From the NCBI RefSeq assembly GCF_044324785.1, contig NZ_CP172129.1: 64,000 nt of DNA, one strand, 5' to 3'. Made by a program: the position numbers. Below are positions 14,601 to 17,600 of the stretch, one piece after another. The first letter of the stretch is position 1. The number at the start of each line of letters is the position of its first letter. This DNA is from Escherichia coli. GTDB lineage: Bacteria > Pseudomonadota > Gammaproteobacteria > Enterobacterales > Enterobacteriaceae.

Positions 14601-17600
14601 GGATATATATAATATGGGTTCCCGCTTTGCGGGGCTTCGGCCAGTCAGCATTATCACTCATATGATATTTTTGTGTGTGGCCTTCCATGCCGCTGTCGCG
14701 GCATAACCGGTATTTGACAATGTATACAATATTAATTGTTCTGCACACTGTTCATTTGGGAAAGTGATTTCTTCGTGGTCGGAACCCGGATACCTTTACT
14801 GCTTTTTATCCCGGTATAAATCCGGTAAACATCTGATGCGTAGGCAAGACGCCTCTGGTTCTGGCGTTCGGTTTTCCTGAATCCGGCATTGTATGCACCA
14901 ACGGCCTCCCAGGTGACGCCCCATTTTTTAAATGCTATTGCCAGATAATAAGCACCGGTATAAATGTTCATGCAGGGATCTGTTGTCATATGTTCCGGCT
15001 TAATTCCGTAGCGGGCCAGTTCGTTAAAATGCTGGGAATCTACCTGCATCAGTCCGCTGCCATATCCCGTTACCGGATTAATACCGATGGCATTAACCCG
15101 GTAACGGGATTCTTGCCATGATATTGCTCTCAGTAAATCAGGATCTATTTTGTAATCCCTGCCTGCAAGATCAAAGCAATCAGTGGCCAGACAGATCTCA
15201 TTTATAAACATCAGGCAGATGGCTAACATCCATTTTTTCATTTTTCCACCTCTGGTGACTTTATCCGTAAATAATTTAACTCACTCCACAAAAAGGCTCA
15301 ACAGGTTGGTGGTTCTCACCACCAAAAGCACCACACCCCACGCAAAAACAAGTTTTTGCTGATTTTTCTTTATAAATAGAGTGTTATGAAAAATTAGTTT
15401 CTCTTACTCTCTTTATGATATTTAAAAAAGCGGTGTCGGCGCGGCTACAACAACGCGCCGACACCGTTTTGTAGGGGTGGTACTGACTATTTTTATAAAA
15501 AACATTATTTTATATTAGGGGGGGCTGCTAGCGGCGCGGTGTGTTTTTTTATAGGATACCGCTAGGGGCGCTGCTAGCGGTGCGTCCCTGTTTGCATTAT
15601 GAATTTTAGTGTTTCGAAATTAACTTTATTTTATGTTCAAAAAAGGTAATCTCTAATGGCTAAGGTGAACCTGTATATCAGCAATGATGCCTATGAAAAA
15701 ATAAATGCGATTATTGAGAAGCGTCGACAGGAAGGGGCAAGGGAAAAAGATGTCAGTTTTTCAGCAACAGCTTCAATGCTTCTTGAACTGGGGCTTCGTG
15801 TACATGAGGCTCAGATGGAGCGTAAAGAGTCTGCATTTAATCAGACTGAGTTTAATAAATTGCTTCTTGAATGCGTTGTAAAAACACAATCATCAGTAGC
15901 GAAAATTTTGGGTATTGAGTCTCTCAGTCCTCATGTCTCCGGAAATCCAAAGTTTGAATATGCCAATATGGTTGAAGATATCAGGGAGAAGGTATCATCT
16001 GAGATGGAACGATTTTTTCCAAAAAATGATGATGAATAAAAGAAATTTGACTTCGTTCAAATATCAGAGTTTTTATGATTTAAAAAGGTGACAGTACGAA
16101 AGATAATTAGTATATTAATTACGTGGTTAATGCCACGTTAAAATTTGAAATTGAAAATCGCCGATGCAGGGAGACGTGAACTCCCTGCATCGACTGTCCA
16201 TAGAATCCTTTGTGAGGAGGTTCCTATGTATCCGATGGATCGTATTCAACAAAAACATGCTCGTCAAATAGATCTGCTGGAAAATCTGACGGCAGTTATT
16301 CAGGATTATCCAAATCCAGCCTGTATCAGGGACGAAACTGGAAAATTTATTTTTTGCAATACGCTGTTTCATGAGTCATTTCTTACACAAGATCAAAGTG
16401 CTGAAAAATGGCTTCTGTCGCAGAGAGATTTTTGTGAATTGATCTCTGTCACAGAGATGGAAGCATATAGGAATGAGCATACGCATCTTAATCTTGTAGA
16501 GGATGTTTTTATTCAGAACAGATTCTGGACAATATCTGTCCAGTCATTTCTTAATGGACACAGAAATATTATTCTGTGGCAATTTTATGATGCTGCTCAT
16601 GTTCGTCATAAAGACAGTTATAATCAAAAAACGATTGTCAGTGATGATATCAGAAATATAATCAGAAGAATGAGTGATGATTCTTCTGTATCATCATATG
16701 TAAATGATGTCTTTTACTTATATAGCACCGGAATCAGTCATAATGCTATAGCAAGAATATTAAATATATCCATCTCCACATCAAAGAAACACGCATCTCT
16801 GATATGCGACTACTTCTCTGTTTCTAATAAAGATGAGTTAATTATCTTACTCTACAATAAAAAGTTTATTTATTATTTATACGAGAAAGCTATGTGTATC
16901 ATAAATACGCGTTAATAAGGTGTTAATAAAATATAGACTTTCCGTCTATTTACCTTTTCTGATTATTCTGCAAACATAAGTGGTAACCAGAAGATAAACA
17001 GCGGGAGGTGTTATTGAAAAGATTTGGTACACGTTCTGCAACAGGTAAGATGGTAAAACTAAAATTACCTGTAGATGTGGAAAGTCTATTAATTGAGGCA
17101 AGTAACAGAAGCGGAAGAAGTCGATCGTTTGAGGCAGTAATAAGACTTAAAGATCATCTTCACCGCTATCCAAAGTTTAACAGGGCAGGGAATATCTATG
17201 GTAAGTCGCTGGTTAAGTATCTGACAATGCGTCTGGATGATGAAACTAACCAGCTACTTATTGCAGCCAAAAATCGTAGTGGATGGTGTAAAACAGATGA
17301 GGCTGCAGACAGAGTTATTGATCATTTGATCAAGTTTCCTGATTTTTATAACTCGGAGATATTCAGGGAGGCAGATAAAGAGGAAGATATAACATTTAAT
17401 ACACTCTAGTTTTATTCATTTATCCGAAATTGAGGTAACTTATGAATGCTGTTTTAAGTGTTCAGGGTGCTTCTGCGCCCGTCAAAAAGAAGTCGTTTTT
17501 TTCCAAATTCACTCGTCTGAATATGCTTCGCCTGGCTCGCGCAGTGATCCCGGCTGCTGTTCTGATGATGTTCTTCCCGCAGCTGGCGATGGCCGCCGGC

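What the first reader, a model, noticed from the sequence alone, without database searches (positions are those of the whole stretch)
16150..16230. Fertility-inhibition system looks intact (finP stem-loop region and uninterrupted finO)
A perfect stem-loop (GATGCAGGGAG / CTCCCTGCATC) lies in the traJ leader where FinP antisense RNA is encoded, and finO (48717..49277) is full-length at 186 aa. That predicts FinOP-repressed transfer unless other mutations derepress it.
Basis: partly seen in the sequence, partly recalled or inferred. Interest (0 to 1): 0.2.

Follow-up and report, generated by a model that had tools for sequence, protein, structure and literature searches.

The report
Intact FinOP conjugation repressor, F-type
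This is the textbook FinP antisense RNA and FinO chaperone pair that keeps F-like plasmids from conjugating constitutively; both parts are intact, so the finding is correct but ordinary.

Summary
Both sequence observations are confirmed. The hairpin (perfect 12-bp stem 16162-16173/16181-16192, 7-nt loop) is stem-loop II of the FinP antisense RNA. It is FinP's terminator and the high-affinity FinO binding site. It is not the stem-loop that masks the traJ ribosome-binding site; that one is SLI, 16199-16228.

Rfam places FinP at 16154-16232 (-) with 97 bits and the traJ 5' UTR at 16121-16231 (+) with 125 bits. Window 16042-16300, which includes the finP promoter, is 100% identical to plasmid F, and TraJ is 100% identical to F TraJ.

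finO (48717-49277) is an uninterrupted 186-codon gene. It is 179/186 identical to R100 FinO and 148/152 to the crystallised FinO (1DVO). Trp36 and all six RNA cross-linking residues are present. F's IS3 sits at the equivalent of 49112/49113, and the window is continuous there. A 286-aa hydrolase gene precedes finO, as in R100.

FinOP-repressed transfer is the best-supported prediction, but the phenotype cannot be tested here.

I did not find this insertion at this site in any plasmid searched. It could reduce expression of the genes downstream of it.

Novelty: already known. Interest: low.

The parts
16088..16116 (+). traJ promoter-like site (PJ): GTGACA-17-TATATT
   Evidence: Consensus scan, 10 of 12 matches. 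It sits just upstream of the Rfam traJ_5 start at 16121 and is identical to F.
16121..16225 (+). traJ mRNA 5' untranslated leader (105 nt), containing SLIIc and SLIc, the sense-strand mirrors of the FinP stem-loops
   Evidence: Rfam RF00243 traJ_5, 124.8 bits against a gathering score of 50, full-length model. Fold z = -4.46.
16226..16915 (+). traJ coding sequence (229 aa), activator of the tra operon promoter PY
   Evidence: 100% identical over 229 aa to F TraJ. The F plasmid and the near-identical plasmid NZ_CP023363.1 both carry TraJ as WP_000283385.1.
16239..16267 (-). finP promoter-like site, TTGACG-17-TACGAT, lying inside the first codons of traJ; a GATC (16238-16241) overlaps the -10 hexamer
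   Evidence: Consensus scan. The spacing places +1 at about 16232, which is the Rfam FinP 5' end. Identical to F.
16154..16232 (-). finP gene: 79-nt antisense RNA
   Evidence: Rfam RF00107, 97.3 bits against a gathering score of 45, model positions 1-76 of 76. MFE structure of two stem-loops, z = -6.46. 100% identical to F.
16199..16228 (-). FinP stem-loop I, complementary to the traJ Shine-Dalgarno (GAGGAGG) and the ATG at 16226-16228
   Evidence: Fold and sequence.
16195..16198 (-). GACA spacer between SLI and SLII, the RNase E cleavage site in FinP
   Evidence: Sequence and fold. The role is taken from PMC8136791.
16160..16194 (-). It is the intrinsic terminator stem and the high-affinity FinO binding site. 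Its loop, UUCACGU, is the F allele.
   Evidence: Terminator scan: 14 pairs, 9 of them G-C, 7-nt loop. Fold. The SLII marker sequence 5'-GACAGUCGAUGCAGG in PMC3105414 matches the window.
16154..16159 (-). FinP 3' tail, GAUUUU
   Evidence: FinO protects this tail and needs its 3'-OH (PMC3105414).
47754..48614 (+). 286-aa alpha/beta-hydrolase gene between traX and finO, the 'orf286' arrangement of R100
   Evidence: Pfam Abhydrolase_1, 6.8e-34. 275/286 identical to the R100 gene at the same position. The gene is absent from F.
48717..49277 (+). finO, uninterrupted, 186 aa, an RNA chaperone
   Evidence: Pfam FinO_N 1.4e-38 plus ProQ/FinO 4.1e-27. PDB 1DVO at 1.5e-95, 148/152 identical. 179/186 identical to R100 FinO and 182/186 to IS3-free F FinO. 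W36, K46, K81, R121, K125, R165 and K176 are all present.
49110..49112 (.). AGC (Ser132 codon), the site where IS3 is inserted in F finO; the window is continuous here
   Evidence: In F, a 1258-bp IS3 flanked by a duplicated AGC separates the two finO halves. The window reads straight through.
37306..38500 (+). Context and caveat, not part of FinOP: an ISKpn26 (IS5-family) insertion inside the tra operon, at the 3' end of traS and 21 bp upstream of traT
   Evidence: 330-aa IS5-family transposase ORF. Terminal inverted repeats. TTAG duplication and the empty site in NZ_CP023363.1.

Best explanation
The window carries a complete, canonical FinOP fertility-inhibition system of an F-like (IncF, MOBF12 group A) plasmid. 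finP (16154-16232, minus strand) is transcribed from its own promoter inside the start of traJ. It yields a 79-nt RNA made of SLI, a GACA spacer, SLII and a GAUUUU tail, fully complementary to the traJ leader. FinO (48717-49277) binds the base of SLII and the 3' tail, shields the GACA spacer from RNase E, and speeds FinP-traJ duplex formation through its N-terminal region (Trp36). The duplex hides the traJ Shine-Dalgarno and ATG and is degraded. TraJ therefore stays low, PY stays off, and only a small fraction of cells become transfer-competent. What is shown here: the identity and integrity of each sequence part. What is inferred from established knowledge of F, R1 and R100: transcription of FinP, FinO activity, and the repressed phenotype. 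The plasmid pairs F's own finP/traJ allele with an R100-like orf286-finO tail. In effect it is F without the IS3 'superspreader' mutation.
For: Rfam FinP scores 97.3 bits and traJ_5 124.8 bits. Window 16042-16300 is 100% identical to F, including the finP promoter, both stem-loops and the spacer. The predicted fold is two stem-loops plus a tail, z = -6.46, and the terminator and promoter consensus matches lie on the minus strand. Across 11 FinP alleles, 100% of stem cells pair while the loops are hypervariable. FinO has both Pfam domains, is 148/152 identical to 1DVO and 179/186 to R100 FinO, and all published RNA-contact residues are present. The window has no insertion at the F IS3 site. All essential F tra genes have full-length, single-piece matches. 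Literature: FinOP mechanism and 100- to 1000-fold repression (PMC3105414; PMC8136791); F is derepressed only because of IS3 in finO, and all other group A plasmids are finO+ (PMC5102898; PMC7690428); deleting finO from a natural F-like plasmid raised tra expression about 100-fold (PMC12491478).
Against: There are no expression or mating data. FinO differs from R100 at 7 positions. One of them, E164A, lies next to the contact residue R165 and is not seen in R100, F or 1DVO, and its effect is untested. The ISKpn26 insertion between PY and finO could lower any PY-driven read-through into finO. The promoter calls are consensus matches only.
Confidence: 0.87

Rival explanations
1. FinOP is intact but largely irrelevant, because the ISKpn26 insertion at the end of traS is polar on traT, traD, traI and traX. 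Transfer would then be crippled or strongly reduced whatever the TraJ level.
For: A 1195-bp IS sits inside the single long tra operon, 21 bp before traT. NZ_CP023363.1 shows the empty site, and its traJ-to-finO distance is shorter by exactly the IS plus its 4-bp duplication, so the insertion is recent. I found no other record with it at this site.
Against: No strong plus-strand intrinsic terminator was found inside the IS. From memory, and not checked here, traT and traI have TraJ-independent promoters. The IS disrupts no essential tra reading frame; it changes only the last residue of TraS.
Confidence: 0.15
2. The system looks intact but is functionally derepressed. Either the FinO variant (E164A and others) is weak, or finO is under-expressed, for example through loss of read-through caused by the IS. 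Transfer would then be constitutive, as in F.
For: E164A is unique among the references compared. An IS lies upstream in the operon.
Against: All known RNA-contact residues and Trp36 are conserved. Replacing an acidic residue beside an RNA-binding arginine is unlikely to weaken RNA binding (inference). The same orf286-finO segment is at least 99% identical in 506 or more PLSDB plasmids, so the allele is common. orf286 and its upstream region are intact.
Confidence: 0.07
3. The hairpin is only a structural element of the traJ leader or a terminator for traM, and no antisense RNA is made.
For: The palindrome folds on both strands.
Against: The U-run follows the stem only on the minus strand, and the plus strand continues GACUGUCC. 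A promoter-like site lies at the right distance on the minus strand. The Rfam FinP match is full-length. The sequence is identical to F, where FinP has been characterised biochemically. One-sided stem substitutions in other alleles keep G-U pairs in FinP but would give A-C mismatches in the sense strand.
Confidence: 0.01

Closest known systems
FinP/traJ/FinO of plasmid F (NC_002483)
   Same: finP, its promoter, the traJ leader and the TraJ protein are 100% identical. FinO is 182/186 identical to the F protein reconstructed without IS3.
   Different: In F, finO is split after Ser132 by a 1258-bp IS3, and there is no orf286 between traX and finO. The window has an intact finO preceded by orf286.
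FinOP of R100 (NC_002134), the classical repressed IncFII plasmid
   Same: Same gene order: traX, 286-aa hydrolase, finO, ANR-family regulator, nuclease, hha, IncFII replicon. FinO is 179/186 and orf286 275/286 identical.
   Different: R100 has a different TraJ (WP_000283561.1). A plasmid with that same TraJ (L015, NZ_CP029734.1) carries different FinP loops: SLI loop CUCUCAA versus CUCACAA, and a different SLII loop. R100 FinP would therefore not be expected to act on this traJ leader, although FinO is interchangeable.
Crystallised FinO (PDB 1DVO) and the ProQ/FinO-domain RNA chaperones (ProQ, RocC)
   Same: 148/152 identical to 1DVO. ProQ and RocC match the core domain distantly, at E about 1e-5.
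   Different: ProQ and RocC are chromosomal and have many targets. The window protein is the plasmid FinO proper, with the FinO_N extension.

Membership tests
FinP antisense RNA (Rfam RF00107) | Covariance-model score above the curated gathering threshold, full-length | tested here: met
   97.3 bits against 45, model positions 1-76 of 76, at 16154-16232 on the minus strand.
FinP antisense RNA (Rfam RF00107) | Encoded antisense to the traJ 5' UTR, overlapping its Shine-Dalgarno and start codon | tested here: met
   FinP spans 16154-16232. The traJ ATG is at 16226-16228 and the GAGGAGG just upstream.
FinP antisense RNA (Rfam RF00107) | Two stem-loops separated by a GACA spacer and followed by a single-stranded U-rich 3' tail | tested here: met
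   MFE structure. The architecture is described in PMC8136791. Pairing is 100% across 11 alleles.
FinP antisense RNA (Rfam RF00107) | Own promoter on the antisense strand and an actual transcript | not testable with these tools
   The promoter-like site TTGACG-17-TACGAT is at the right place and identical to F. Transcription needs a northern blot or RNA-seq.
FinO (Pfam PF12602 FinO_N + PF04352 ProQ/FinO) | Both domains present in one uninterrupted protein of about 186 aa | tested here: met
   FinO_N covers residues 1-62 (131 bits) and ProQ/FinO covers 73-177 (94.7 bits). The ORF is 186 aa.
FinO (Pfam PF12602 FinO_N + PF04352 ProQ/FinO) | Trp36 and the RNA cross-linking residues K46, K81, R121, K125, R165 and K176 are conserved | tested here: met
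   All are present. The residue list comes from PMC3105414.
FinO (Pfam PF12602 FinO_N + PF04352 ProQ/FinO) | Located at the distal end of the tra region, after traX | tested here: met
   The traX match ends at 47692, orf286 is 47754-48614 and finO is 48717-49277.
FinO (Pfam PF12602 FinO_N + PF04352 ProQ/FinO) | Stabilises FinP and represses transfer | not testable with these tools
   This needs mating assays and FinP half-life measurements.
traJ 5' UTR (Rfam RF00243) | Covariance-model score above the gathering threshold | tested here: met
   124.8 bits against 50, at 16121-16231 on the plus strand.
R100/R6-5-type finO arrangement with upstream orf286 | A 286-codon ORF lies immediately upstream of finO | tested here: met
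   47754-48614, 275/286 identical to the R100 gene. I recall that this arrangement raises finO mRNA level and repression strength, from van Biesen & Frost 1992. Only the title of that paper was seen here, as reference 14 of PMC7690428, and searches for orf286 found nothing relevant.

The most novel reading that the evidence does not exclude
The ISKpn26 insertion at the 3' end of traS, not found at this site in any record searched, may rewire the distal tra operon. It could uncouple traT, traD, traI, traX, orf286 and finO from PY, or drive them from the IS. That would change the balance between FinO supply and TraJ-driven transfer. It also gives TraS a new 9-residue C-terminus that might alter entry exclusion.
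Probability: 0.1. Interest if true: 0.3.

Novelty: already known. Interest (0 to 1): 0.08.

Why it matters
The result has practical value only. It predicts that this multiresistance IncF plasmid transfers at the low, FinOP-repressed rate typical of natural F-like plasmids, rather than at F's derepressed rate. It also predicts that loss of finO would make it a 'superspreader'. Downstream resistance genes (mer, sul2, strAB) are annotated in a plasmid that matches the window at 99.9% identity over 88% of 40000-64000. Nothing here changes the understanding of the FinOP system.

Tried and rejected
- **orf286 and finO mRNA levels.** I looked for the primary literature. Two full-text searches found nothing relevant, and the classic papers PMC372961, PMC211823 and PMC1196074 are not held. 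That point therefore rests on my memory and is marked as such.
- **The ISKpn26 insertion in other records.** The best PLSDB and RefSeq E. coli hits carry ISKpn26 at different positions. In p1_21366 it is in the middle of traS. In pRHB34-C04_3 the transposase gene ends about 630 bp before traT. I rejected these as the same event.
- **A second FinO ligand.** I considered whether a RepX-like RNA of IncQ origin (PMC8136791) might lie in the window, because an IncQ repC fragment is annotated in a near-identical plasmid. In that plasmid an IS26 lies about 750 bp beyond repC, so a complete repA, whose 5' region RepX overlaps, probably does not fit (repA length from memory). The window also ends about 330 bp past repC. 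Rfam gave no such hit. I did not pursue it.
- **Covariation in the FinP stems.** It is uninformative. Nineteen of 24 pairs never vary, and the two 'both-sides' changes come from one allele with an indel. The support is conservation plus G-U-only substitutions, not compensatory change.
- **Structure prediction, fold search and large protein searches.** I did not run them, because the PDB sequence match (E = 1.5e-95) already settles the identity of FinO.

Full report
**What is at the coordinates.** The window is the transfer region of an F-like plasmid. traM is at 15656-16039 and traJ at 16226-16915. traY, traA, traL and traE follow, down to traX, whose match ends at 47692. The flagged hairpin is real. 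GATGCAGGGAG lies at 16163-16173 and CTCCCTGCATC at 16181-16191. The perfect stem is 12 bp (16162-16192) with a 7-nt loop. Perfect hairpins with a stem of at least 11 bp and a loop of 3-10 nt occur at only six loci in the 64 kb. None occurred in 20 first-order Markov simulations.

**Identity of the hairpin.**
- Rfam places FinP (RF00107) at 16154-16232 on the minus strand, at 97.3 bits against a gathering score of 45.
- Rfam places the traJ 5' UTR (RF00243) at 16121-16231 on the plus strand, at 124.8 bits against 50. Both matches are full-length.
- The minus-strand 79-mer folds into the published FinP architecture at -37.6 kcal/mol, z = -6.46. From 5' to 3' it has a short 5' extension, SLI (16228-16199), the GACA spacer (16198-16195), SLII (16194-16160) and a GAUUUU tail (16159-16154).
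- A terminator-like call (14 pairs followed by a T-run) and a promoter-like site (TTGACG-17-TACGAT, 16267-16239) both fall on the minus strand. The promoter spacing puts +1 at about 16232.

According to PMC3105414 and PMC8136791, SLII and its 3' tail form the high-affinity FinO binding site. SLI is the part complementary to the traJ Shine-Dalgarno and ATG. The SLII marker oligonucleotide quoted in PMC3105414 (GACAGUCGAUGCAGG) matches the window exactly.

**Allele.**
- Window 16042-16300 is 100% identical to plasmid F (NC_002483). The only difference in the 271 nt aligned is at 16041, just after the traM stop.
- TraJ is 229/229 identical to F TraJ.
- In a spread of 11 FinP alleles from PLSDB plasmids, all stem positions pair in every allele. 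The two loops are hypervariable, which is the classical basis of allele specificity.
- The three one-sided stem substitutions give G-U in FinP but would give A-C in the sense strand. True compensatory changes are essentially absent, so this is conservation evidence, not covariation evidence.

**finO.**
- The ORF at 48717-49277 encodes 186 aa.
- It has the FinO_N and ProQ/FinO Pfam domains.
- It is 148/152 identical to the crystallised FinO 1DVO at E = 1.5e-95. It is 179/186 identical to R100 FinO and 182/186 to F FinO reconstructed without IS3.
- Trp36 and the six cross-linking residues (K46, K81, R121, K125, R165, K176; PMC3105414) are all present.
- In F, a 1258-bp IS3 with a duplicated AGC splits finO after Ser132. 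The window reads straight through that site at 49110-49113.
- Between traX and finO the window has a 286-aa alpha/beta-hydrolase gene (47754-48614). It is 275/286 identical to the gene at the same place in R100 and is absent from F.
- The plasmid is therefore a mosaic, with an F-type regulatory head and an R100-type tail. This combination is common. At least 726 PLSDB records are 99% or more identical over traM-traJ, and at least 506 over orf286-finO. NZ_CP023363.1 is 100% identical to both segments.

**Mechanism.** The following comes from established knowledge. FinP pairs with the traJ leader and blocks TraJ translation. FinO protects FinP from RNase E and catalyses duplex formation. TraJ is needed to fire PY. 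F is derepressed only because IS3 disrupts finO, whereas other group A F-like plasmids are finO+ and transfer two to three orders of magnitude less well. In a natural F-like plasmid of an AIEC strain, deleting finO raised tra expression about 100-fold (PMC12491478). All essential F tra genes are present in the window as full-length single matches. The plasmid should therefore be conjugative and FinOP-repressed. This phenotype is inferred, not shown.

**Caveat found outside the finding.** A 1195-bp ISKpn26 (IS5 family) lies at 37306-38500, in the same orientation as the tra operon. It has 16-nt terminal inverted repeats and a TTAG duplication. It sits two codons before the traS stop and 21 bp before the traT ATG.
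- NZ_CP023363.1 shows the empty site. Its traJ-to-finO distance is 1199 bp shorter, which is exactly the IS plus the 4-bp duplication.
- TraS changes from ...KKESVS to ...[14 protein letters not shown].
- I found no PLSDB or complete RefSeq E. coli record with the IS at this position. The nearest hits have it elsewhere.
- Polarity on traT, traD, traI, traX and finO is possible but untested. No strong plus-strand terminator was seen inside the IS.

**Verdict.** This is a textbook, already-known system, identical at the RNA level to F and nearly identical at the protein level to R100 and to the crystallised FinO. Interest is low. The only non-routine item is the IS insertion in the tra operon.

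Noticed in passing
window 37306-38500 (TTAG duplication at 37302-37305 and 38501-38504): An ISKpn26/IS5-family element is inserted two codons before the traS stop and 21 bp upstream of traT, inside the tra operon. The empty site is seen in NZ_CP023363.1. The last residue of TraS (S) is replaced by [10 protein letters not shown] did not find this insertion at this position in PLSDB or in complete RefSeq E. coli genomes.
   Followed up: yes
window 15656-17409 versus 46982-52000: The plasmid has a mosaic backbone. The traM-finP-traJ-traY head is F-identical. The tail (traX, orf286, finO, ANR-family regulator, nuclease, hha, IncFII copA/repA) has the R100 gene order.
   Followed up: partly
window 31427, 32541, 36712-37333, 41659: Relative to F, the artA region, most of trbF and the vapBC pair between traD and traI are absent. 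traS is a different allele (29% identity to F TraS) and the traG 3' end diverges, which suggests a different entry-exclusion specificity from F.
   Followed up: partly
window 4341-4376 and 12991-13026: Two near-identical perfect 14-bp hairpins (CAAAATTTTTTACC...GGTAAAAAATTTTG) lie in the leading region, about 8.6 kb apart. Their function was not examined.
   Followed up: no
window 14445-14475, 15431-15466, 58499-58529: Three other perfect palindromes of at least 11 bp. One is a 31-nt palindrome just downstream of the transglycosylase gene (orf169), and looks like a bidirectional terminator. One is a GC-rich 13-bp inverted repeat between orf169 and traM, in the oriT area. One lies in the resistance region.
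   Followed up: no
window 4662-4763(-), 11979-12151(+), 34697-34782(-), 44508-44584(-), 49519-49703(-), 51829-51919(-): Rfam matches above gathering score: AS-pc01, sok, AS-traG, AS-traI, AS-pc02 (just downstream of finO, 215 bits) and CopA of the IncFII replicon.
   Followed up: no
L007 (NZ_CP022227.3), L009, L015, L017 compared with window 16154-16232: Some plasmids encode a TraJ identical to F's (WP_000283385.1) but carry a different FinP SLII loop (GAGAGAA instead of UUCACGU). One-sided stem substitutions in the R100-like and pSLT-like alleles keep G-U pairs in FinP but would be A-C mismatches in the traJ sense strand.
   Followed up: partly
window 16238-16241: A GATC (Dam) site overlaps the finP -10 hexamer. 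From memory, Dam methylation regulates finP transcription in pSLT. The paper is listed by title as reference 24 of PMC7690428 but could not be read here.
   Followed up: no
window 53000-64000: A plasmid matching the window at 99.9% identity over 88% of 40000-64000 (NZ_CP062858.1) is annotated here with a Tn21-type mer operon, IS26, strB-strA-sul2 and an IncQ repC fragment. This was not verified gene by gene in the window.
   Followed up: no
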